From Neolecta irregularis DAH-3 (Eukaryota): 41,744 nt of DNA. Each line of letters begins with the position of its first letter. Positions within the stretch are counted from its first letter, which is position 1. The translations under genes and the position numbers were made by a program. This document shows, piece after piece, positions 1 to 40,133 of the stretch. The notes under the pieces are model-generated. The model was not told the origin of the DNA and ran no database searches. It saw nothing but the letters and a program-made list of their open reading frames with translations. Where the stretch lies: NCBI GenBank assembly GCA_001929475.1, contig LXFE01000417.1, positions 1 to 41,744 of the forward strand, written 5' to 3'.

Positions 1-1096
1 CTCATTTCTGAGTGGAACTATTGCCGGAACAGTATCGATCTTGTATCTTCATGCAGCGCGACCCGGCAAGAGTACCACTGATCTAACTCTATTTACCTTG
101 GTCAGAGCAATCGACGTCTTGTTTCATCTCAACGACACCCTGGTATTTGTATTCGCTTGTAGCATTATTATGTATGCATACTTCTATTCGCCAGAGAAAC
201 TTCCTCCGTCATACAATTCGTGGATTAACAAAATGAGTACTGTTGATCCAAGAATCAAAGTCATGTTCAAGAAGCTTCATGATAAGAAGATACAATTTGG
301 TCAACCGTCAAGCGACCGGTCGCTTGAAGACGTCTCTTTTGATTTGGGTCTTGATCCAAAGATGGGGAGCATTGAAGAAAATGACGCCTTGCCGTGTCAA
401 GTTTTCCACTCTAATATTTCCGGTTCTTGCAAAGTACATATTGCTTATCGGTGGCTAAAAGGATTCAAATCCTCCATAGCGGTATCCTTGATCCTACCCT
501 TTTCTTTACCTGACACGTAGATTTATGTTCCCCTTTCCCTTATGCTTGCCCTACGGGATCCAACTACGAAAAGCTTTAAGCGAGCATTGACGTCCGCCAT
601 ACGATCTTCTGCCTTTCTTGCCACTTTTATCTCAAATCTGTGGTATAGGATCCTCTTATGTCTTTATACCAATAAAATCTTAGGTTGGGTGTTTGTGCAA
701 CACGCTCAATAATCGGTCCCAAACTATTTCCTAATGTCAACCAAAATACGTATGATGGAATGATTGGTAATCCACTGCTAGGAAATCAGTCCACTTATTA
801 ATAGGTCCAACGATTGGGTCTTTTTTATCTGGATGGAGCATATTAATAGAAACCCCCAAAAGAAGAGGTGAACTTGCTTTGTTCGGTATTCCTTTACATT
901 CTACTGCCATTAACGTCAAGTCGTACCGAAAGCCTTAACGGTAGTATTGCCCAAATCAATCCAGCAACATCGTATCATCGAAACAGTCATATTCGGATTA
1001 AGCTCCGGTGTGATCATTCGATCGTTAATAGACGGAAAAGGTCGAAAAGTAAGGGGCATTTTCGGTAAAACGTTACACTGGATAATGAATGCCTAA
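1..1096 (+). CDS. TMEM135/PXMP4-like integral membrane protein, 5'-truncated by the window edge; 4 GT-AG introns
   Basis: The spliced frame gives TTDLTLFTLVRAIDV, IMYAYFYSPEKLPPSYNSWI, PCQVFH, AIRSSAFLATFI and GWSILIETPKRRGELALF, which are motifs of the fungal TMEM135 family. First intron 482-520; stop TAA 1094-1096. Confidence 0.75.
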
Positions 1097-1703
1097 AAGA
1101 CAAAAATGTAGATTTCAACTATGCATAAGATACTACATTCAATCTTGTTTCTTCATATTGCATTCAAGACAGTTGTAAAAGTCCATAATGATCACGACAA
1201 TGAGAGCCTGAGTTGTTACCTTTGCCAAACAAGAGTAAATATTACAGAATATTGGAGATATCCCAATACTTTCTCGGTATGAACTTCTTTTGGAACAATC
1301 CAAATATTGCACTGATAAATATACATATTATACTCCAAAGGAAATGTAATCGAGGGATGAAATTGCAGCCAAACGATCGATGGAGCAGTCTAACTTTTCC
1401 GAGTAGAAGGAATACGATCGTCTCGATCTCATATAATTTGGAAACCCATTCATTTGAGGTGTTTCCATCGCAGATCTAAATGAAGATATGGCGATACGAC
1501 GTATAGGTGAGTACTAAACTGCGGACTGTCTCTTTGCAGATTCCCGTGACTTTTTTTCCAAAGGTTACCGACCGACCAGAACCTCCTACTTTCCATTTTC
1601 CATTCACACAATCCCCCACTTTAGAAAAAGTCCCCTAGCACAACGCACACACATTCCCCCTAAATCTTCTAGTCTTAATAGACACATTACTCAAAAAGTT
1701 CCC

Positions 1704-2885
1704 ATGTCTGAAGCTACAGCGTCGAAGCGACCCGCCAATGACGACCTTCAAAATGACGCCAAACGGCAAAACTTTGAAGGAGATGAATCCTCCTGGGTCA
1801 GCCTTCGTGCAATTCTCTCTGGACGAGAAGCCTCTGTCGTGATTGGGACCGGCGGTGATAACGTCGCAAGGATTCGCCAGTTGGCTGCAGCCCGGATTTC
1901 GGTGTCGGATAACCTCAAAGGCGCCATTGATCGAGTATTAACATGCAGCGGAACACCAGAGAATGTTGCAAAGGTGTCCATAATATAGATTAATGGCAAA
2001 TATTTACAAGCTAGGCGTTCGGATTGATGGTTCGAACACTGAATGACGAATCTCTGGAAGCAAGTTCCAACGAGACAAGTAAGTCATTTACCCTGCGTCT
2101 GGCGGTTTCAGATTACTACATGGGAAGCGTGATAGGTAAAGCGGGTTCTCGTATCAAAGAACTCCAAGAAGTGTCGGGCGCCCGAATCACGGCTTCAGAT
2201 GGGTGTCTGCCATTGAGCACTGAAAGAACTGTTGTTATCGCAGGTGTAGCAGATGCTATCCACATCGCCGTATTTCATCTTGGAAAGACAGTTCGCGATT
2301 TTGCGGAAAAGTTCACCGTTGCGCTGACTGTTCCCTATAATCCACTGCCTACTTGGGGTATATACGGCCATTGGGACACATACGGCAAAAATCGGGCTAT
2401 GCAGGCTAATATCATGAGTCCCGCAAACCCATACGGTATTCCAATGGGTACGAATATGGGGCAAATGGCTGCATATGGCCAATTAGATCCGAGTATCGCT
2501 ATCGCGCAACAGCAGTTTCAGCAGCCGCAGACTCAAGGACAAGTGCAGGCTCGACCCGGCCCGGCAGCTCAACCCGGTCAACCAATCACGCAACAAATTT
2601 ATATCCCTAATGATATGGTTGGTGCTATCATCGGAAAAGGCGGCGCCAAGATCAACGAAATCCGACAGGAATGCTCTACTTTTGAGACGAATGCTAACCA
2701 ACAGATGTCTGGTTCTCATATAAAAATTAATGAGCCTTCTGAACAAGGAAATGAACGGCTTGTTACTATTACAGGAACCCAAGAATGCAACCAAATGGCT
2801 TTGTAAGAGAATCTATTGGTTAAAACAACTGACTCTCAGATATATGCTCTACTCACGTTTGGAAAGCGAGAAACACCGTATGTGA
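1704..2885 (+). CDS. rnc1: Triple KH-domain RNA-binding protein (Rnc1/Pbp2/hnRNP K-like); 3 introns
   Basis: Three GxxG KH motifs (VIGTGG, VIGKAG, IIGKGG) and C-terminus ALYMLYSRLESEKHRM*. Introns 1974-2014, 2669-2704 (GA-AG) and a third starting near 2803. Confidence 0.9.
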
Positions 2886-3377
2886 GAGCTCGATACCCGC
2901 TTGATTTCGACCGTCTTTTGTAACGAGTTCTCTGTTAGTTAGATGGAAACGTATGCCCAATAGATTATCACGTTAAACCGTCCATTGATTGACAACGTCA
3001 CATCAGCTATTTGTCCTTGTTTTGGATGTCATCCGGATAGTCTGCTCTTTAGCACTGGATCTAATTTAGAAAACCTCGTATCAAATATCTCAAGTCTTCA
3101 TTCCCCTCTCAATGGGCATACCCTTCAGTCTTTATCGGAAGCCTGGCCCTTCAAGACCTTCAGCGGCACCGTTAAACGATCACTAAAGTCCAGCTCAAGC
3201 ATGGAAATTCTTTCTTCCTTGAAACGATACTTTTCAATCGAAAATCAACAGAAACTTTCAGGATCATCTAGTTCTCAAAAGCTATTTCCGATATCACTAG
3301 GAGACTTTTGCAGGCAGAAAAGATCCTTGTTTATCTAGAAACATTCATAAATTCAAGTATCGAACGGCGTCGAAAAG

Positions 3378-4376
3378 ATGATCGGTTTGATAAGGCGTTG
3401 TAAAGATAAGCGTCGAGTGGAGTATATAAAGCACTGGATGAAACGTATCGAAAAGCTCTTTGACGAGATACGAAAGGAACGCACATATAAGTTGCTACGG
3501 GACACTCGCCATCTGTTATCTTTTGTTTTAAAAACAGAGGTACGTATATTAGTGTTATTTGAGCTAAATAACAGCTTCTTGGCGACGTCCTATGTTCAGA
3601 CTGCCCTTGGAGAAAACAAGGTCATCTTTGATGGTATGTCTCTGCCATCCCCCGACTCTAAATTTTCGAGGCCGGCACATTGCGTGGTGCAGCAAAAAGT
3701 TACCTTTTGGCACTGAAATTGCCTTTGAAACCACCATCAGTGGTTCTGATCCGAAAACCGCTACTGAAAGGGACCGGCTGACGGTGAAAATTGCCTACTC
3801 CTCACAAGTAAACCTTGAATTCATCCACCAATTCCTCCTCAAGCGATATCGAAAGGATGGACAAGTTCCTCAAGGTAATATTCTGATCAACTGCTGGCCA
3901 ATACCAACTACCCAGGGCTTATGGCACTCAACAACCTTTTGCCTCAAACCCCCACCCTCAAATTTTTCACCATGGGTAGTTCTAAGAATTTTTACAAAGA
4001 GCACAATGCAGTGCCTCTCACTGGAGCTCTCCAAGCCTGGAGAGGCATTTTTCAATCACTTCGACCTTCACAAGGCAACATAATCTTTTTGTTCTCTGAT
4101 ACTTATTTGATAGGTTTCCTCACTGTAAACGTTGATGTCGCCACTACTGTCGCCTGGCAGGGTGACCTATCTCTTGTTGATATGGTATGTAAGCATTCAA
4201 ATATAACTGTTCTATACAATATTGGCAATTCTGCAAGGCAACGATCAGGCAAAGAAGTTTCTGTTGATTTCTTTCTTTGCCTTTACTCCTTTCAAAATAC
4301 GGAACTGTATAATAGAATCAAGGGATCTTGTGATATAGACCTTGAAGTTGCGTACCAAGTTGCTCCGACAAGATAA
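3378..4376 (+). pseudogene. Truncated Argonaute (N-domain and linker-1 only; no PAZ/MID/PIWI); gene fragment or chimeric short ORF
   Basis: Splicing out 3634-3670, 3875-3915 and 4075-4113 gives VIFDGRHIAWCSKKLP...QGLMALNNLL...LTGALQAWRGIFQSLRPSQGFLTVNVDVATT, which matches the Argonaute N and ArgoL1 motifs. Recognisable similarity stops near 4205, and the DOP1 stop follows at 4486. Confidence 0.8.
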
Positions 4377-4485
4377 GAAGTTCATCCATGCAATTGTTTC
4401 AAACTAACCAAGGCATGAAGCCTTGTAACATATCATTTTCCTATCATAACTGTTCAAAACTTTATAAAAACCACCCCGCTTTCAC

Positions 4486-7400
4486 CTAAACTTGATTCCG
4501 TGCAAACAAATCCTGATAAAGCCCTTCTTCACAAGCATCTATATCTGGCAATTGCATTGCATAAGTTGCCTCGTATGCAAGAATACTGAGACGATTGAGA
4601 TATGGCTTCAGTTGTTCAAGTTCTGTGATATTCTTACCAACTAGCAACGGTTTTCTTCTAGCCGTCGTTACTTGCGATGAAGCTGAATTTGACTAGAGTT
4701 GGACTAGTATACTAAAAGGTCACACGTACCTCAGTACTGGGAAGAAGATAATTCGTCGTATTTGAAACTCCCAATCTATAAGAAAGTCTATCAATCCAGG
4801 CATTTGGTTCGGACGTTGGCATTCTAAATATTGCGTCCATTGTATCTGTTATGAAGATCCATTCGTGCCTGGTAATGAGCAAGTAAGGCCAAAAAAACCC
4901 TACATCTGAAAGTCTTCCGGAGAAAGAACTAAAATCAGATCCAGAAGCTTACACGCTTCGAAGAGACTCTTGCTATGGTCTCTTTCCTGTATCGCAGCTT
5001 CTTCGACCATATACGAAAGCATCATCTGGAGATCGGTAAAGATGATTGGCCAAAACGACTGTAAATGGACTGAGGAAAATCGGAGAAGTATTGTTTGGAA
5101 TAATAAATAGATTTCACCTCGAATACTGTCTGATGGGGTACTGCGCACCACTTCGTTAACCTTTTCTTTAATTGTTGGAAGGTATATGAGAAACTCATCG
5201 GTCTCACAACAGAGCAATGCAAACTCGAGACGTCGGAAATTAAGTTGTCGTTGGAGGGTTTCTTGTTCTGCAGTCCCGAATAGCCCAGCTTGGTTGCTTG
5301 CGCCGAGACGGGCAACAAGTTCTACAACACGCTCCTTCTCGGCGGTATACAACTGCTTTCCAAAAGGTAGCCATAAACGAGCGCCTTGGGGTGTCATGGT
5401 AAAGAAGGCCCGTTCGTTGATCAAGTCGAAAACTTCTTTCCGCCACACTTTGTAGGTTCCCGGTATACATGTTACTAATCGGAAGATCTCGACTATGCGC
5501 GGATCTACGTTTGTTGGACTTGCATTAGTACAAGCAGAAAAAGGACAATGCAAGTTTCTGCTACGCAGCATCGGAGAAACAAGAAGATTGAGAATCTGGG
5601 TACATATGTACTGTATACGATCCGGCTCGCCAACAACACTGTGAATATTCTCAATGACAACTTCGATAAGTTGTTGCAAGACATCATCGCCTGGGGGTGC
5701 CGGTGATTTCGATGGTGGAGTTGCAAGACCGAACTCGAGGACAGCTCGTGCTTCGAACTGTCAAAAGACGGATAAAACACGAGACAAACCTGTTCTCTTT
5801 GACAGAGAATCACGTCTTGATTTTTCAGAATTCGCAGCAGTATATGCTATAGGAAGAGAAAATAGTACTATACGGTTATATAAATCCTAAAGTTTAGCTC
5901 AGTGACAGTATTATAGCAAATACTGTGAATTCCTTTCTGACTTTCTTTTGTTCTTGCAATGGCGACATCACCAATATTCTCCCGGAAACAGTCACTAACC
6001 GTAGAAGACTTGCAATGGAAGAACGATACACAGGCAATGCATTACCAACATCTCTTAAGAATTTTGTCACTTCGTTCCAATATATAACGATAGCACTTTC
6101 ATCGAGAGTCCGCATAAACTCGGTCATGAAGTCAATAACGAGAGGTTCAGAGCTAGAAGTTGGTTACAGAAATAAACTGGAACGTACAGCTCAACGGCCG
6201 GCGACTTCCTGCTGTTTAATAAGTCGATGGCCGTCCGATTATTTGACCGACTCGTGATGCAGCTGAGAAGCGTCAGTATCGGTTGCTTTGGATCGAAATC
6301 CGAAATATTCTGGATACAACTAAAGATACGAGGGTAGATTACTGCCTGACCATGTTAATTAATAACACTTTCCAAGCCCTACGTTTATTCCAATTCGAGA
6401 CCAGATTTCAATGAAAATTTCCAAGGTCCAAGTTGATTCGATCAAATACATTTGCGTCAGTAGTCTTTTACTTCGACTTGACAGCCGTGAAATGATAGTA
6501 GCTAGAGAACTCGAGGTAGCAGGTTTCATCTTAATCCTTATTTGTTCTGTCCATGCCCAGATATCAAAGCCTAATTTCTGAATATCTTGGTGACATAGGG
6601 AAATAGTGAACCGATTCTTTCAATTAGATCATATTGTGATAAGAGATACTTACATTGGGTCCCGCTCCTGAAGTTGCTATAGGTTCTGATGAAAAAACAC
6701 CAGAAAGAACATTCCCGAAAAAAGATCCGCTTTCTTGAACCTTCCGTTCCTCCAACAGCTTCTCCTCTATCTGCAATGCTTCATGGCCTTTTGGAATCAG
6801 GCGTTCCAAACCATCCATGAACAGGACAATATCAGGTATCGTGGCGGATAATACTGAATGGACATCATCATCTGTCGGCCGGGACGAAAGTTCTTGGAAC
6901 GCTATTCGAATCTCCTGGCAAATACAGGCGATCAAAATGAACGAAACCTGGAAGACATTCATGTCGAAGATATGGAAACAACTTGACATAAATCCAATCC
7001 ATTCCGCTAGGTAGGGACGGCTATCCTTGGAAGAAAATCCGACCGTAAAACACCGGAGAATGAGAGCTGCAAGCTCTGACATAGGTTTTGTGTCCTGCTC
7101 AGTAGCTGAATATGAATCGCTGAGGCTGGGCGAAGCAGAATTCAAACTCAGTTGCTTTTTAAGTAGACCGTGAGCAGATTGAAGGATATATGGCTGCAAA
7201 GATGGTGAGGTTCCGGTAGCACTTTGCAAAAGCTTCTGCATCAGGACATTTAGTAATTCAGTATCTGTAACAGAATTGTCTTCGGTAGCAGAAATAAGAC
7301 GATTGAGGTTGTTTAAGCATGCCAGCTGGAGGGGAACTAGTGTTTGTATTCTGTTTAGGTCATCAGGGTCTGATATCTGACATTGTACAATCCTAATATT

Positions 7401-10383
7401 TAGCAAAGGTGTCGAGGCGAGGAGTTATCTTGATAACACTGCAAGGAGCAGTTGGGAATAGGTCAATCCGCTTGTCTTGAAGTCACCTTGAGCTTAATTT
7501 ATGGAACCACGGAAATCATACGCAATAAAAGAAGCTCGACACGGTCATCGGTGAAAGAAAACATTTCTGCGGCCAGATAACTTAATAATTTTGTTTGTCC
7601 AACTTCCAGAATAGCTTCAAGCGCTTGAATTAGGGTCAGGAGATTACTGATATCATCGTCCCGATCAATAATAGAGGCCATAACTTGTATATCCTCAACA
7701 GTAGTTAATGATGGCGACTTCAAGATAGAGGACTGCAAGATTCTCATTAAAATGATGTCCATAAGTCTCCGGGTTAGAGTCTGTCGACAAGTGCAAGTAC
7801 AATACCTGCTCGTTGAAGCACCGAGAGCTTTGAGCCAACGCTTTGCACAAAGTCGAGCTGTCGGATGATTTGATTTGAATGTCTCCAAGACTTCATATAC
7901 TGGCCCGGCAAGAACATCCGAAAACCTTTTTTCGTTCACTTGCTGTCAGAAGGCAAAAGGAATGAGTTTTATTATTTACCACTCAGATTCCACAATACAG
8001 AAAATGATTGAATTGCTAGAGTCTTCATATTATCGTCAGTGTTTGAGAGGAAATATGATATCCGCGACCGACATATTTCGACACCGAGAATATCGACAAT
8101 TTTCCAGAAGAATGTTGTGCCTTCCAAGTGATATCGTGGATTCCGCGGTTCAAGAAGGGCCCAAGTCTAGATTTAATCCGTAATCAAACAGTGAAGAATG
8201 GTACCTTGTCAACAATCAGGTTTTGGTTATCCTTGCGTAAGTCCGATGCTGCGAAAGCTTGCATAGAGCGAAACCTCATGATTGTAGTGATTGTTGTAGA
8301 TATCATGGCAAAACTTTCCATTTTTTGGTCCCGCAGGACATCCAATAGACTCTGCACGATAGATCGAGCACTCTGAAGCTCAATGCGTGTATAAGAACCC
8401 AAAACATCTGCCAGGAATTTCAAGATATGCTCCACTGATTCTAGTTCCTTTTTCAAGATGGTTATTGTCGTCACAACTAAAATATCTCTGACCTGCGAGT
8501 TAGGAAGAGGCATGACAAGAGTCTTTGATGTATAGGCGCTCTGTTCTTGCCCAGCTTTGAAATATCGTGCAATATACTCTGCGAGCTGCCTGGTATCAGT
8601 GAATGTAACATCTGGTGATTCCAAAGTAAAGACTCGTGCAGGTATAAGCTGTAGCAAAGATACTGAAAGTTGAAAACTTTTGATTCCAATCTCTGAGGCA
8701 GCTTTTGTTCGGGAATGTGTCACTAACAGATCGAGAAGTGTCATCGGTATCAAAGATGTGACCATCTCCTCTTCTGCAATATCAAAAGTCGAAATGATAA
8801 GACTGATCAAATCGAAATTATTAATTTGCCCTTCGAATGCTTTATGAATAAGGGTAGAGATGCATCCCCATATTAAAGGCGCTTCGATCCCATTAAACAT
8901 CATCTTTGCGCTTCGTTGTACTTCTTCATATTGATCAAACAATTGCTTTCCCTCGAGATTCACTCGCACTGTTTGAAGATATTGAATGCAGGGCAAGAAC
9001 ATAATCGAGATAACTTTCCCGCCTACTTCCCAGTAATCCAACAAGGCAAGACAAATTCGAAAAGGCCTAACCAGATCTCGTGTATTTGAAAGCTCAGGGT
9101 CGAGTATTTCGTTCAGTCCGCTTAGTAAATATTGCAATCCGAACTTTTGAAAGTGTTCAGGATCGACATGTTCCTCTTCCGGTCCCAAAAACCATCTCCA
9201 TAGTCTCCGATTGAGAGAAAGATCACGGCGAAGAACAACCAATGTAGCGCTTAAAACTAAACGTTGGAGGTCATTTTTTGGGATGGTTCTTCAACATCAA
9301 TATTTCATATTATAAAGCCATTACTCTTGAAGAAGCGGAGATGCAAGCGGTACATTCGTCACCAACAGATCTAAAAATCCTCGTTGAACCAAGAGCTCCG
9401 AATCAGATAAGCCAGCACAAAATGCCCGAGTCATGAGCGTTGGATCGGGTTTGATAACTGAAGACTCTGCATCTACAAATTCAGCGGGATATAAAGTGAA
9501 ACCGGAACCATCAACTGTGGTTGAAAGTTTTGGCATCTTTCTGGACAAGTATACTAAAGCACCTTGTCTTCGACCACTCGCACTGATAATAGTAAGCCAA
9601 ATATTTTGCCAAAAGTATGCATCATCGTCCAGTGCTGTTCTAATGCCATCAACACAGGCGAACGTTCTTTCGAAAAATTCTCCTGTTTCTTCCTCAATAG
9701 CTGGAAGAAGTGCCAGTAACAAAGACTTAGCACATGGTCGCAGGTATGTTCCGAGAGCGATGTAATGTTGTTCAAAGAGAGTAAGCAGATGAGGCTATTC
9801 GTGAGTTTTTTGAGGAGAAATTAGATACGAAACCCTGACGCTGATAGAAGCATATGTAAATAAAGGAACCAGACCGGGTGTCCAGATATGCAATTCGCGT
9901 CCTAGGTAATCCCTCTATAAGACATTAGATTTGTTTCCATGATAAATTTACTCCCAGCTGTCTGGATATGAAATCATATACTTCTAAAGTCCTCTGGTGA
10001 ACTCCCGACGGTAACGATGGATCCAGGCATTGAGCAAGTCTTCCAGCGACTTGAACTTTATACGGAATATGTCGAAATGCCGAGCCGAGATGTAATGCCT
10101 AGTGCCTTAAATATGATTGACCCGCCCTGGATACCTTGAGAAGTCTCGAGAGGAAAGATATGTAATCTGCCCATTCCTGAGTAACCTCAAAGGTAGACAA
10201 ACTTCTATTTATCGCTAGAGAGAACTTTTTGTATTTTGCATCTTTATTCGGATCTGAACGCTCTGTAACAATCACTAATGGTCTCGTGGAGAGGGTACCT
10301 CTTGTTGGCGATATTGATCTAGAATCTGCGGGAAACAGAGCTGACAAAGTCAACGGCGAGTCAAGGTTTAGTTTCTCTGCCAT
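4486..10383 (-). CDS. DOP1: Dopey/DOP1 endosome-Golgi trafficking protein; about 17 introns
   Basis: Dopey_N motifs QEWADYISFLSRLLK, RLAQCLDPSLPSGVHQRTLEVY, LVQRGFLDLL and VVLRRDLSLNRRLWRW. C-terminal motifs ACKLLDL and DFQMHEWIFITDT. Stop at 4486-4488. Confidence 0.93.
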
Positions 10384-37666: not shown

Positions 37667-38214
37667 TTTACTTTCAATTGGTTACTGAACCCAAGTAAAT
37701 AGTTACTGATAAAGTAATTGGCTACTGAATCTAATGTAACACCCTTTCATAATAAATTTGATCTGTCGAGTCTGTCATATAGCTTTGTAGTAAAAGGCGT
37801 ATGACTGGTCGACATGATCAGTAACTAGACATTGGACCGCCTTTCTCTTGAGCTGCTACTTCAAATATCATATAGTGTGGCAACCTACTGTTCTAATTGA
37901 CAATTTAAGAAAACTTTTGTGGAAATCTGTTGACACGAGAGATTCCATTTTGAAAGCCTCTTCATTATGTCAGTTGACTAATCTCTTTCATAGAATTATG
38001 TGCATTACTATCTCTATCTATTGGTCTATAGATCTCTGGATATTCTAATTCTATTCAAGATGAAAATTGAATTCATTTCAATGTTTTCGGTTTTGTGGGG
38101 AGGCCACTTGATAGTTTTACTTTGTCACCGCCATCCTCCAAAGAGTTATAGGCATCAACAGAACCCTTTGGATTTCCAACTGTCTTTCAGGTAAAAAGAT
38201 TTCCTTTTACTCAT

Positions 38215-40133
38215 ATGGAGTTGTCACTCGGTCGCTTGACGCGATCTTCCTCCTTGATGTCTGTTACTTCCCTGGCCAGACAGTCATTTTCCACCCAGTT
38301 GTCCCGGTTGACTTCGCTATCTCTCCCATCAACTGAATATCTGCGTTCCAAGATATCTTCGCTGCAAACTCCGGAAGCGATCGTCTCACTTCGGGCATCC
38401 GGGCAGGATATTTTGAAATGGATAACCGTGGCTCAGGCTGTGCTCTCCGGATTGGACGCCGAAGACGATGTTGAATGGGCTGCAAGCGGAAAGGATTCAC
38501 TGGGAAAAGTAGAACTTGCAGTGACAAATTTTGGAGAGATAATCAAGACTTTTATTGAATTATCCGATGAGGTCAGCAGTCGTGATGATCCCAACCCTAC
38601 GAGCCTCGCTGAGCTGGTCCGAGGAATTGATTCAATTACCGATGCATGGGCAAAAGTCAAATCGACTTTGGATAATGTGAAAGAACAGGTTGAAATTTCC
38701 TTAGAATGGGTGGAAAGCATGCAGATCATTAATGATATCACAACCGAACTCGACGAGTGCCAAACCATCGCCTTTGAAATCGAGGAAGAACGACATAAAG
38801 CGCCAAAAGTGCTCGGCGAAGAAGGAGTTTGTCAAGAAAAGCCTTCTTTACCCAACTGGGGTCACCGAAGATCGAACACTTTCGACGAATCAAATATGTC
38901 TATGGTGAAATTAGATGGACGGATGCAACCACTACGCGCGAGTCTCGACTTTCTAAAACCTCGACTAGTCAGCTTTGCAAAAAGAGCTGATCTCGCGTTT
39001 CCTAGCGCAATATTAGAGTTGAACGAAAAGAGAAACCATCTGGAGAATCAGTGGAACAAATTGAAGAGCAATTATACGAGTTTGAAAAAGGAATTGGAAG
39101 ATGATCATTGGGTAGCTAGTTTTAAAAGTACTGCTGCACAAGTATATTCAAAGCTCTTTTACAAAGGTTGATTTTCCAGGCTAATCATATGATGGATTCG
39201 ATAGAACGATCATTACGAAGGGTGCAATCATATCTCTTGACTGGAGCCTCTAAAGATGCGGAGAAATGTGTCAAGACATACTATGCTAAACGTTCAGGAT
39301 ACGGTATAGACAAAACCCATGTATATTGTCTGACTGACAAAGGACCCCCAATTGAACGTGTCTTGACGATGTTTGAAAGCCATCTTCAGTCTCGTGGCAC
39401 ACTCAACGGCGTCATTCTTCGTACGAAATCCGTAATACAGAATCGTTGGGCGGAATTATCGAAAGAAATGGATCTTCTTGAACACCAGGTGGACTCTACC
39501 TTTTCGGACGGTATTAGTAGTATTAGTCTAAACGATATATCGGATTCAGGAAGCACCGCTCCAAGTGAACCATCTCGAGCGATTACCCCCAAAAGAATGT
39601 CGAATGCTTTACCGCCAAGCGTATTACCCCAAATGAAAAGTCCGACTCGAATTCCGTTGTCGACAAAACGGATAAGTTTGGCTCCTCAACATGCTCTTAA
39701 TACTCCAGCAAGGAACAATCGAGCTGTATCTCCAATTCCACCAAGAACCCTTCGTCGTCTGACTTCGTTTTCTTCGATGGGGAAGATTACGCCTCCTAAA
39801 CCATTGTGGAATTCATCCATCAAAGCAGACGATGTTTTTACAACTTTCTTGCCGAGCCCCGTTCACTCGCCTTCTTCGCAGACATTTCATGCTCGAATTT
39901 CATCAAATCCACCTTGCACAAACCATTTCAATGGTTCTGCAAAATCTTCAGATGGACTTAAGAGTATCGACGAAGTTATCAATCGCCGAGCAAGTTCAAT
40001 TCCCCGACCTCTTTCAGATATTCTTAGAGTGTCAAGACCACGGAGAGAGAGCGCAATGCATATACCAGCCTGCATTAAAAGCCCATTAAGCGAGAGCGGA
40101 GCGAATGGTAGGCCTAAACCAGCATGGAGATAA
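38215..40133 (+). CDS. KAR9: Karyogamy/microtubule-cortex protein Kar9-like; at least 2 introns, start possibly further upstream
   Basis: LSGLDAEDDVEWAASGK and MQPLRASLDFLKPRL match fungal KAR9-domain proteins. There is a Ser/Pro/Arg-rich tail with SxIP-like motifs (TRIP, SSIP) ending RPKPAWR*. Confidence 0.8.

What the first reader, a model, noticed from the sequence alone, without database searches (positions are those of the whole stretch)
3378..4376. Argonaute reduced to its N/L1 part, in an ORF that is still open
Exons 3378-3633, 3671-3874, 3916-4074 and 4114-4376 total 882 nt, an uninterrupted 293-aa frame. Its core (about 3574-4205) is Argonaute N plus linker-1 sequence. Both ends look unrelated to Argonaute, and there is no room for PAZ/MID/PIWI before the convergent DOP1 stop at 4486. 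Retained introns point to a DNA-level duplication or deletion rather than a retrocopy. It may be a relic of RNAi decay, a recent captured fragment, or a guide-less Argonaute-derived neogene (inference).
Basis: partly seen in the sequence, partly recalled or inferred. Interest (0 to 1): 0.72.

Follow-up and report, generated by a model that had tools for sequence, protein, structure and literature searches.

The report
Dead Argonaute fragment, one of many
A broken-off, internally deleted copy of an Argonaute (RNA-silencing) gene sits between two ordinary genes of a Neolecta-like fungus; it is most likely a dead DNA-level duplicate, and the same genome seems to hold several more such fragments.

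Summary
The four-exon, 882-nt, 293-codon open frame exists as described. Its core is Argonaute: Pfam ArgoL1 E=8e-14, partial ArgoN E=7.6e-5, below cut-off. It is 92% identical (155 of 168 columns) to the 360-aa 'Protein argonaute' of Neolecta irregularis DAH-3.

One claim is wrong. The 3' end (4206-4373) is also Argonaute. It matches residues 492-547 of a fuller relative (64%, E=1.4e-17), which are the MID tail plus the first ~34 residues of PIWI. The copy is therefore N(part)+L1 joined to a PIWI stub. PAZ, L2 and MID are deleted at 4203-4205, and both outer ends are truncated (3537/3538 and 4373/4374). Only the first 54 codons are unrelated, with 0 homologues.

Retained introns and a 5' break in non-mRNA sequence show a DNA-level copy, not a retrocopy. 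In one DNA run the flanks have depth ~430 and the Argonaute stretch sums to 800-9,959. Up to 8 variant contigs cover one place, several with frameshifts or a stop. Spliced paralogue transcripts that carry on past the window's breaks are present.

Verdict: an unprocessed pseudogene fragment from a multi-copy family. The open frame is unremarkable for a young copy. Interest is low to moderate.

The parts
3378..3539 (+). Orphan 5' part of the ORF: ATG at 3378 plus 54 codons of single-copy, non-Argonaute sequence
   Evidence: No match to P0001-P0004 by tblastn. 0 hits at E<=0.001 among 1.84 billion representatives. Pfam gives only sub-threshold coiled-coil noise. DNA depth equals that of the flanks. 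The chance of such an in-frame ATG-ORF of >=54 codons is 1.2% in a first-order Markov model.
3538..3581 (+). 5' edge of the Argonaute-family DNA. It is probably the tail of a parental intron, and the proposed ORF reads it as codons.
   Evidence: In one search, a paralogous DNA contig (X1) is unlike the window before 3538, and the spliced paralogue contig (X2) is unlike it before about 3582. The letters before that point read LKPSLSRKLW by eye, as in P0002. GTACGT lies at 3540.
3582..3633 (+). Argonaute N-domain exon piece
   Evidence: Alignment to P0001 and P0002.
3634..3670 (+). Intron 1, 37 nt, GT..AG
   Evidence: A joint 3632>3670 (cut +1) is seen in one X2 contig from a paralogue.
3671..3874 (+). 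Argonaute N-domain exon
   Evidence: Pfam ArgoN profile positions 60-126. Alignment.
3875..3915 (+). Intron 2, 41 nt, GT..AG
   Evidence: A joint 3872>3914 (cut +2) is seen in one X2 contig from a paralogue.
3916..4074 (+). Exon holding the end of N and the first part of linker 1
   Evidence: Pfam ArgoL1. Alignment.
4075..4113 (+). 39-nt in-frame stretch with GC..AG ends: a candidate intron 3 whose splicing is unconfirmed
   Evidence: Absent from P0001 and from the Lipomyces and Saitoella Argonautes, but read through in the NCBI model P0002. One X2 contig (3991-4138, no gap) reads through it.
4114..4202 (+). End of linker 1, up to the first residues of the PAZ region
   Evidence: tblastn match ends at 4202, which is P0001 residue 233. 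P0001 PAZ starts at 231.
4203..4205 (+). Joint of the internal deletion that removed PAZ, L2 and nearly all of MID (P0001 residues 234-491) while keeping the frame
   Evidence: In one search, 2 X1 contigs run on unlike the window after 4202, and 4 X1 plus 2 X2 contigs are unlike it before 4206. X1 contig record 6 (4040-4289, 0 differences, depth 391) bridges the joint.
4206..4373 (+). MID tail, linker and first ~34 residues of PIWI. It ends well before the catalytic residues.
   Evidence: P0001 residues 492-547, 64% identity, E=1.4e-17. P0001 MID is 423-498 and Piwi 514-664. Pfam alone finds nothing in this 57-aa piece.
4374..4376 (+). Stop codon TAA in unique sequence just after the 3' breakpoint (4373/4374)
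   Evidence: Paralogue contigs run on unlike the window after 4371-4373, and their letters read NVLKASPQFA by eye, as in P0001.
4486..4692 (-). Last exon of the convergent DOP1 gene; it bounds the locus on the right
   Evidence: ORF 4486..4692. DOP1_C hit on 4900-5760. Spliced contig with 0 differences and a joint 4692>4730.
2015..2885 (+). 3' part of a KH-domain protein gene; it bounds the locus on the left
   Evidence: KH_1 E=7e-32. The last short exon and the stop at 2883-2885 were read by eye.

Best explanation
This is an unprocessed (DNA-level) pseudogene fragment of an Argonaute gene.

- Two pieces of genomic Argonaute DNA, introns included, lie in a 1.6-kb gap between a KH-domain gene and DOP1.
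- Piece A (3538-4202) runs from an intron tail through the C-terminal ~70% of the N domain and linker 1.
- Piece B (4206-4373) holds the MID tail and the first ~34 residues of PIWI.
- A deletion of about 258 codons, with their introns, removed PAZ, L2 and MID and happened to keep the frame. Both outer ends are cut off.
- An ATG 54 codons upstream in unique DNA completes a 293-codon ORF.
- Any product would lack the PAZ 3'-end pocket, the MID 5'-phosphate pocket and all PIWI catalytic residues. It could neither hold a guide nor slice.
- The copy is one member of a multi-copy family of Argonaute-derived sequence in this genome, and many of the other members are visibly dead.

Shown: the anatomy, the breakpoints, the family and the lack of the functional modules.

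Inferred: that the copy has no function. Also inferred is that the deletion arose between short direct repeats; parental-type contigs show the pentamer CAAAT near both edges, read by eye.

Not settled: whether this copy was inserted here or is an old locus decaying in place.
For: Identity
- Pfam ArgoL1 E=8e-14 and partial ArgoN.
- tblastn P0002 E=2e-55 and P0001 E=4e-36 on 3552-4202; P0001 residues 492-547 on 4206-4373, E=1.4e-17.
- P0001 domain map.
- 155 of 168 columns identical to P0002.

DNA-level origin
- GT..AG introns are retained at the very positions spliced in paralogue contigs.
- Family likeness in DNA starts at 3538, in sequence absent from the paralogue mRNA.

Breakpoints are real in reads
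- Three zero-difference contigs of run X1, at flank-like depth, bridge them: 2600-3610 (depth 432), 4040-4289 (391) and 4315-4900 (424).

Family
- 76 X1 contigs were laid on 2600-4900. Their identity classes (99+/95-99/90-95/under 90) hold 17/21/33/5 contigs.
- Summed depth is 800-9,959 over 3524-4370, against 432 and 424 in the flanks.
- 8 contigs show the variant at place 3783.

Dead relatives
- A 1-nt loss at 3963 occurs in 4 contigs (depth 2,612 of 3,614).
- A 1-nt loss at 4062, and TGG>TAG at 4039, occur in a depth-1,956 contig.

Relaxed constraint, suggestive only
- 8 replacements are unique to the window against 2 unique to P0002. They include L>P and R>P at sites conserved in the Lipomyces and Saitoella Argonautes. 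Binomial p=0.11.

Open frame is not special
- 33-68% of simulations with 10-30 random substitutions keep the 675-nt Argonaute-derived frame stop-free.

Other
- The N-terminal 54 aa have no homologue.
- No protein matching this locus's ORF appeared in the protein-collection searches.
Against: - The retained Argonaute-derived parts hold no stop or frameshift. The internal deletion keeps the frame (about a 1-in-3 chance).
- An in-frame ATG-ORF of 54 codons in the unique upstream DNA has only a 1.2% chance in a Markov model. Taken together, the open 293-codon frame is somewhat less likely by chance than each part alone.
- The excess of window-specific replacements is not significant (p=0.11).
- A low-depth zero-difference contig of run X2 (depth 5.4) covers 3228-3392, which includes the ATG. 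Some transcription near the 5' end cannot be excluded.
- No listed X1 contig shows the window's letters at 3860 and 3869, so the middle of the copy (about 3610-4040) is not independently confirmed.
- Run X1 may be the data the window was assembled from.
- The tool warns that summed contig depth is not a copy number.
Confidence: 0.8

Rival explanations
1. A young chimeric protein-coding gene. The 293-aa product, made of an orphan basic N-terminus, part of the Argonaute N domain, linker 1 and a PIWI stub, is made and does something that needs no guide RNA, for example binding a partner of the full-length Argonaute.
For: - The frame is open across four exons, one large deletion and a foreign 5' end.
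- The in-frame 54-codon ATG extension has a 1.2% chance.
- The window copy keeps the reading frame at 3963 and the Trp codon at 4039, where the most abundant paralogue contigs are broken.
- A low-depth contig of X2 covers the ATG region.
Against: - The N domain lacks its first ~59 profile positions and the PIWI stub is 34 residues, so neither is likely to fold (inference).
- Part of the ORF (3540-3581) seems to be former intron.
- Eight window-specific replacements include two new prolines at conserved sites.
- The orphan N-terminus has 0 homologues.
- A stop-free Argonaute part is expected in 33-68% of neutral simulations.
- The third splice would need a GC donor, and it is read through in the one contig that covers it.
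Confidence: 0.06
2. A non-coding role. The fragment, and the family of dead Argonaute copies, is transcribed and feeds or soaks up small RNAs that act on the working Argonaute mRNA. This would be pseudogene-derived siRNA or decoy regulation.
For: - Contigs of X2 that behave as RNA come from several broken copies: 1- or 2-nt losses at 3754, 3783 and 3963.
- They reach depths of 170-680, above the 64.5 of the DOP1 contig.
- In Phytophthora sojae the Argonaute pseudogene AGO7 is also transcribed at levels near those of working AGO genes (passages read in PMC6284064).
Against: - No small-RNA data and no strand information are available; contigs cannot show either.
- For this window's own copy, the only zero-difference X2 contig listed in the relic's interval is a depth-5.4 one upstream.
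- Transcription of pseudogenes is common and does not show function.
Confidence: 0.08
3. An assembly artefact. Reads from several Argonaute copies were collapsed or chained, so that a full-length or differently built gene appears here as a deleted fragment.
For: - The stretch is multi-copy.
- 21% of the sampled words of 2900-4600 are missing from the best run (share 0.79).
- No listed X1 contig carries the window's letters at 3860 and 3869, so the middle (about 3610-4040) could be a mosaic.
Against: - An independent contig build of run X1 bridges all three breakpoints without a difference and at single-copy-like depth: 2600-3610, 4040-4289 and 4315-4900.
- The gap between the KH gene and DOP1 is fixed by those same contigs, so a full gene cannot fit.
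Confidence: 0.05

Closest known systems
Unprocessed (duplicated) Argonaute pseudogenes, e.g. Phytophthora sojae AGO7 (PMC6284064; passages read)
   Same: An Argonaute-derived sequence in a genome that also has other Argonaute copies, and that cannot make a working protein. In P. sojae the pseudogene is transcribed; here, contigs that behave as RNA come from broken family members.
   Different: AGO7 is described as near full-length with several premature stops. The window's copy has no stop but lacks about three quarters of the protein through one internal and two terminal truncations. It also belongs to a family of fragments with differing breakpoints.
Full-length fungal Argonaute, as in P0001 (unnamed source), Saitoella complicata G7K_2074 (P0005) and the Lipomyces Piwi-domain proteins (P0003, P0004)
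   Same: Homologous in part of ArgoN, in ArgoL1 and in the first residues of Piwi. Intron positions are shared with the paralogues.
   Different: PAZ, L2 and MID are absent, as are Piwi beyond residue ~34 and the first ~65 residues. It cannot be filed as an Argonaute.
RNAi-gene relics in fungi that lost RNAi, e.g. the Cryptococcus deuterogattii lineage (PMC4778953, PMC8022950; search listing and abstract openings only)
   Same: Truncated leftovers of RNAi genes.
   Different: Here RNAi loss is not indicated. Spliced paralogue contigs continue into MID and PIWI sequence. Dicer and RdRP could not be searched because no genome is held.
Gene fragments carried by DNA transposons (Pack-MULEs, Helitrons; recalled, no call)
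   Same: Many dispersed partial copies of a host gene, introns included, some transcribed.
   Different: At this copy the DNA is at flank-like (single-copy-like) depth right up to both breakpoints. No terminal inverted repeats or target-site duplication were found, and the window holds no transposase-like ORF among the 10 large ORFs scanned.

Membership tests
Eukaryotic Argonaute (AGO clade) protein | Complete N domain (Pfam ArgoN) | tested here: not met
   Only profile positions 60-126 of 142 match, at 23.6 bits against a cut-off of 30.9. Residues 1-55/65 of the relatives have no counterpart in the window.
Eukaryotic Argonaute (AGO clade) protein | Linker 1 (Pfam ArgoL1) | tested here: met
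   E=8e-14, 51.5 bits against a cut-off of 22, profile positions 2-52 of 52.
Eukaryotic Argonaute (AGO clade) protein | PAZ domain (binds the guide's 3' end) | tested here: not met
   No Pfam hit. P0001 residues 234-491, which include PAZ 231-351, have no match anywhere in the window.
Eukaryotic Argonaute (AGO clade) protein | Linker 2 and MID domain (5'-phosphate pocket) | tested here: not met
   Only the last ~7 residues of MID (P0001 492-498) are present.
Eukaryotic Argonaute (AGO clade) protein | PIWI domain with the catalytic tetrad | tested here: not met
   Only P0001 residues 514-547 of Piwi (514-664 and beyond) are matched. The ORF stops at 4376, and Pfam finds no Piwi in the piece. 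The first catalytic Asp motif of P0001 lies further downstream (read by eye).
Processed pseudogene (retrocopy) | No introns, poly(A) tract, flanking target-site duplication | tested here: not met
   Two GT..AG introns are retained at positions spliced in paralogue contigs. The 5' edge lies in sequence absent from the mRNA. No direct repeats flank the copy.
Unprocessed (duplicated) pseudogene fragment | Likeness to a parental gene that includes introns | tested here: met
   The 39-nt intron-3 stretch is also shared with P0002's read-through model (11 of 13 codons alike, by eye).
Unprocessed (duplicated) pseudogene fragment | Disabling lesion | tested here: met
   Loss of about 258 internal codons, of the first ~65 residues and of everything after P0001 residue 547. 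There is no stop or frameshift inside the retained parts.
Unprocessed (duplicated) pseudogene fragment | Relaxed selection on its branch | tested here: inconclusive
   8 window-specific replacements against 2 P0002-specific ones in 168 columns, p=0.11. dN/dS is not computable without the parental DNA.
Unprocessed (duplicated) pseudogene fragment | A parental or paralogous copy in the same genome | tested here: met
   One DNA run (X1) holds both the window's zero-difference contigs and many variant contigs 90-99% alike. Some of these continue with parental-type sequence beyond the window's breakpoints. Whether an intact full-length copy exists was not testable.
Transposon-captured gene fragment | Terminal repeats, target-site duplication, repeated flanks | tested here: not met
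   None found in 2800-4700. The flanks are at single-copy depth.

The most novel reading that the evidence does not exclude
A small, gene-dense fungal genome of the Neolecta type has amplified pieces of its own Argonaute gene into a family of perhaps 5-20 partial copies. Many are broken yet well represented among RNA-like contigs. The family could act as an RNAi feedback device, with pseudogene-derived small RNAs or decoys tuning Argonaute. Alternatively, the one copy that kept an open frame (this window) could encode a guide-less N/L1 protein that competes for Argonaute partners.
Probability: 0.08. Interest if true: 0.65.

Novelty: new member of a known kind. Interest (0 to 1): 0.3.

Why it matters
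The fragment itself is an ordinary outcome of gene duplication and deletion. Its main value is as a caution: the open 293-codon frame should not be annotated as an Argonaute or counted as evidence about RNAi.

The wider observation may matter more. The Argonaute-derived stretch appears many times, in diverged and partly broken forms, in a genome otherwise reported as small and compact (14.5 Mb; passages read in PMC5309816). The only named Neolecta Argonaute model in the protein collection is a 360-aa truncation.

The RNAi gene set of this lineage, which is used as a reference point for the evolution of multicellularity in Ascomycota, is therefore probably mis-assembled or under-annotated. It deserves a long-read look.

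Tried and rejected
- **Whole-genome search** for a parent Argonaute, Dicer and RdRP: not possible, because no genome is held for this window.
- **Parental DNA for dN/dS and intron comparison.** Two metagenome scans found nothing. The first used P0001 peptide patterns: 64 stretches matched a pattern, and none was a relative. The second used a 33-nt exact pattern from 4122-4154 and found 0 stretches.
- **Expression of the window's own copy.** No RNA holder was listed by the look-up of sequencing runs. Both runs are labelled 'DNA?', a guess. X2 behaves as RNA-derived because 4 of its joints skip 36-41 nt, one of them in a zero-difference DOP1 contig, while X1 shows no joints. No zero-difference X2 contig was listed on the Argonaute part of the window. 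Stretches 2831-3215 and 3447-3523 had no X2 cover. Contigs drop rare variants and 83 pieces were not shown, so this says nothing either way.
- **Splicing of the third gap (4075-4113):** no joint was listed, and one paralogue contig reads through it. Left open.
- **Transposon capture:** no terminal inverted repeats or target-site duplication were found. There is no second copy of the locus in the rest of the window. The neighbours are housekeeping genes: DOP1, RecQ helicase, KAR9, PIG-F and a tRNA-ligase domain; 4 of the 10 ORFs scanned had no family.
- **RIP-like mutation bias among copies:** not seen. X1's variant places show C>T plus G>A = 13 against T>C plus A>G = 14, and transitions 27 against transversions 19.
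- **Upstream unique DNA as the remnant of another gene.** The ORF 2964-3335 (124 codons) has no Pfam family and no usable Atlas hit. An open run that long occurs in 3% of Markov simulations. Codon-usage scores of 0.045-0.062 per codon fall between the coding mean (0.123) and the off-frame mean (-0.178), which is not decisive. One row, 'exon3', was set in the wrong frame and is disregarded.
- **Structured RNA in 2600-4800:** 0 Rfam matches at E<=0.1.
- **Literature.** 'Neolecta' with 'argonaute' gave 3 papers, 2 listed, neither about this by title or abstract opening. The main text of the N. irregularis genome paper has 0 occurrences of RNAi, argonaute, Piwi, silencing or small RNA. Its supplements, which hold the gene-family expansion analyses, are closed and may bear on the family claim.
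- **Structure and complex prediction:** not run. The product is a spliced (joined) sequence that I did not pass to other tools.
Full report
**1. What is in the sequence**

The four proposed exons (3378-3633, 3671-3874, 3916-4074, 4114-4376) add up to 882 nt. They translate into 293 residues followed by TAA. The first two gaps are 37 and 41 nt with GT..AG ends. The third (4075-4113, 39 nt) has GC..AG ends and is an in-frame, stop-free multiple of three, so the frame stays open with or without it.

Pfam finds the following on the uninterrupted frames:
- ArgoL1: E=8e-14, 51.5 bits, cut-off 22.
- A partial ArgoN: profile positions 60-126 of 142, E=7.6e-5, 23.6 bits, below the 30.9 cut-off.

The neighbours are a KH-domain gene upstream (KH_1 E=7e-32) and a convergent DOP1 gene (DOP1_C E=4.6e-52) whose last ORF ends at 4486.

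**2. Relatives**

A search of longer proteins with the 3879-4376 frame gave 4 hits among 311 candidates:
- 'Protein argonaute [Neolecta irregularis DAH-3]' (P0002, 360 aa).
- An unnamed 676-aa protein with all six Argonaute domains (P0001).
- Two Lipomyces Piwi-domain proteins.

In 168 aligned columns the window's product equals P0002 at 155 and P0001 at 134, while P0001 equals P0002 at 140. The window thus comes from a Neolecta-like fungus. Its short introns and 42% G+C fit the 44% reported for N. irregularis (passages of PMC5309816). I did not prove the species.

**3. The 3' end is Argonaute too**

tblastn of P0001 against the window gives two matches in one frame:
- Residues 56-233 on 3552-4202.
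- Residues 492-547 on 4206-4373 (64% identity, E=1.4e-17).

Pfam maps P0001 as ArgoN 28-159, L1 173-218, PAZ 231-351, L2 365-411, MID 423-498 and Piwi 514-664. The window therefore holds the C-terminal ~70% of N, all of L1, then, directly joined, the last residues of MID, the linker and the first ~34 residues of Piwi.

PAZ, L2 and nearly all of MID (P0001 residues 234-491) are gone at a joint at 4203-4205. The frame is kept across that joint. Nothing else in the 41.7-kb window resembles an Argonaute at E<=10.

Only the first 54 codons (3378-3539) are foreign. They have 0 homologues at E<=0.001 among 1.84 billion representatives.

**4. Breakpoints and mode of origin**

I laid two coded public runs on 2600-4900 at 80% likeness.

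Run X1 behaves as genomic DNA. It has equal depth (432 and 424) over both flanking genes, its introns are in place, and it shows no joints.

Run X2 behaves as RNA-derived, although its label 'DNA?' is a guess. Four joints skip 36-41 nt. One of them lies in a DOP1 contig with no difference from the window.

They lie in contigs with 7-16 differences from the window, so they come from paralogues.

Loose ends define the edges of the family likeness:
- **5' edge.** One X1 contig is unlike the window before 3538. The spliced X2 contig is unlike it before about 3582, and the letters there read, by eye, as the LKPSLSRKLW of P0002. Thus 3538-3581 is probably the tail of a parental intron, which the proposed ORF reads as codons.
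- **Deletion joint.** 2 X1 contigs run on unlike after 4202. Their letters read C-R, then GTAAAT, as in P0002's ...NCR... followed by an intron. 4 X1 and 2 X2 contigs are unlike before 4206, with letters reading ENANTQTNIT, close to P0001's ENANSQTSIT.
- **3' edge.** Contigs of both runs run on unlike after 4371-4373, reading NVLKASPQFA as in P0001.

These features show a DNA-level copy, not a retrocopy.

Each breakpoint is bridged by a zero-difference X1 contig at flank-like depth: 2600-3610 (432), 4040-4289 (391) and 4315-4900 (424). X1 may be the very data behind the assembly, so this is a second assembler's view of the reads rather than independent sequencing.

Parental-type loose ends show the pentamer CAAAT near both deletion edges (by eye). 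A microhomology-mediated deletion is plausible but inferred. Three letters at the joint do not fit a simple version of it.

**5. A multi-copy family**

Over 3524-4370 the summed X1 depth rises from about 430 to 800-9,959, with a peak at 3755-3831. It falls back to 458 and then 424 right after 4370.

76 X1 contigs were laid on 2600-4900, with 17/21/33/5 of them in the identity classes 99+/95-99/90-95/under 90. At place 3783, 8 contigs show the variant letter. The tool warns that summed contig depth is not a copy number, and overlaps between short contigs inflate it. Even so, many distinct variants, each at or above flank depth, indicate several to perhaps twenty copies.

The copies are unevenly spread. 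There are about two over 3538-3677 and many more from about 3700 on.

Many copies are dead:
- A 1-nt loss at 3963 occurs in 4 contigs (depth 2,612 of 3,614). The window keeps the in-frame version there, matching P0002.
- A depth-1,956 contig carries a 1-nt loss at 4062 and TGG>TAG at 4039, in the conserved Trp of linker 1.

Of the 37 listed variant places that I classified, 12 are synonymous, 17 non-synonymous and 8 intronic. Another 21 places were not shown by the tool, and 3 listed places seen only in X2 were left out of my table.

Further loose ends at 3740, 3781, 4253, 4259 and 4288 point to copies with other breakpoints. There is no RIP-like bias (C>T plus G>A = 13; T>C plus A>G = 14).

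At this locus the flanks are at single-copy-like depth up to the breakpoints. No terminal repeats or target-site duplications were found. The surrounding genes are housekeeping genes. Nothing here points to a transposon.

**6. Is the open frame meaningful?**

For a young copy, no. With 10-30 random substitutions the 675-nt Argonaute-derived frame stays stop-free in 68-33% of simulations.

Replacements unique to the window number 8 (N>T, E>G, L>P, T>M, R>P, N>S, Q>H, L>M), against 2 unique to P0002. Several fall at sites that the Lipomyces and Saitoella Argonautes also conserve. The excess is not significant (p=0.11).

Some results count against pure chance:
- The deletion keeps the frame, which has about a 1-in-3 chance.
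- The in-frame ATG-ORF of 54 codons in the unique upstream DNA occurs in only 1.2% of Markov simulations.
- A zero-difference X2 contig of depth 5.4 covers 3228-3392, including the ATG.

I weigh these as a mild anomaly, noticed after the fact.

Any product would have an incomplete N domain, a stretch of former intron, and no PAZ, no MID and none of the PIWI catalytic residues. Guide binding and slicing are excluded. Folding is doubtful (inference).

**7. RNAi status**

Paralogue contigs of X2 continue into MID-side and further PIWI-side sequence at depths of about 350, against 64.5 for DOP1. Fuller Argonaute copies are therefore present and expressed in that sample. The 'RNAi decay' reading is not supported.

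Whether an intact full-length gene exists in this genome is open. Searching the protein collection with P0001 found the following:
- No Neolecta protein at E<=1e-30 among the 8,000 scored candidates of 371-1,183 aa.
- Only P0002 at E<=1e-5 among the 2,588 candidates of 30-370 aa.
- P0002 itself reads through the 39-nt stretch and stops early.

In a short-read assembly with an N50 of 16 kb, a 90-99% alike family would be fragmented, which may explain this. No genome is held, so Dicer and RdRP could not be searched.

**8. Comparison with what is known**

The closest described thing I could read about is the transcribed Argonaute pseudogene AGO7 of Phytophthora sojae (passages of PMC6284064). RNAi-gene relics of Cryptococcus lineages (listing only) differ because RNAi is lost there.

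The fragment fails the membership test for an Argonaute protein: PAZ, MID and PIWI were tested and are absent. It fails the test for a retrocopy. It meets the test for an unprocessed pseudogene fragment.

I found nothing in print on Argonaute copies in Neolecta. The search for 'Neolecta' with 'argonaute' gave 3 papers, and the genome paper's main text has 0 mentions. Its supplements are closed and could list gene-family expansions.

**9. Verdict**

- A real feature, correctly spotted but partly misread.
- Best explanation: a dead, internally deleted, DNA-level Argonaute fragment, one of a family (0.8).
- Rivals: chimeric neogene 0.06, small-RNA or decoy role 0.08, assembly artefact 0.05.
- Novelty: a new member of a known kind.
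- Interest: 0.3, mostly for the unexpected family of Argonaute fragments in a compact fungal genome.

Noticed in passing
window 3524-4370 (seen through runs X1 and X2): The Argonaute-derived stretch is multi-copy in the DNA run. Summed depth is 800-9,959 against about 430 in the flanks, up to 8 variant contigs cover one place, and copy density is uneven (about 2x over 3538-3677, far more from about 3700). The most abundant variants carry frameshifts (3963, 4062) or a stop (4039).
   Followed up: partly
window 3242-3257 and 4255-4270: A perfect 16-nt inverted repeat lies between the unique upstream DNA and the PIWI-stub piece (blastn E=3.5e-4 for this pair of regions). The likeness does not extend beyond it. 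It may be chance or the trace of a rearrangement.
   Followed up: partly
window 2964-3633, + strand: One reading frame is open from 2964 to 3633 except for two stops 12 nt apart (3336 TAG, 3348 TAA). The 124-codon part has no Pfam or Atlas relative, and an open run that long occurs in 3% of simulations. It is probably chance, but an older decayed ORF is not excluded.
   Followed up: partly
window 4075-4113: A 39-nt stretch with GC..AG ends is spliced out in the unnamed model P0001 and read through in the NCBI model P0002 and in one RNA-like contig. It is either a GC-AG intron or a lineage-specific 13-residue insertion in linker 1.
   Followed up: partly
window 2664-2704 (KH-domain gene): One RNA-like contig of X2 (depth 469) skips 36 nt here, and no placement of the cut gives GT..AG. 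The best placement reads GA..AG with a CTAAC-like branch site. It may be a non-canonical intron donor.
   Followed up: no
P0002 (N. irregularis DAH-3 'Protein argonaute', 360 aa): The only named Neolecta Argonaute model found stops after a partial PAZ and seems to run into an intron. No Neolecta protein with MID or PIWI turned up in searches of the 30-370 and 371-1,183 aa ranges. The RNAi gene set of this genome looks under-annotated.
   Followed up: partly
window 38152-40133, + strand: KAR9 homology is split over two overlapping ORFs in different frames (38152-39171 and 39126-40133). This is most likely a short intron rather than a frameshift.
   Followed up: no
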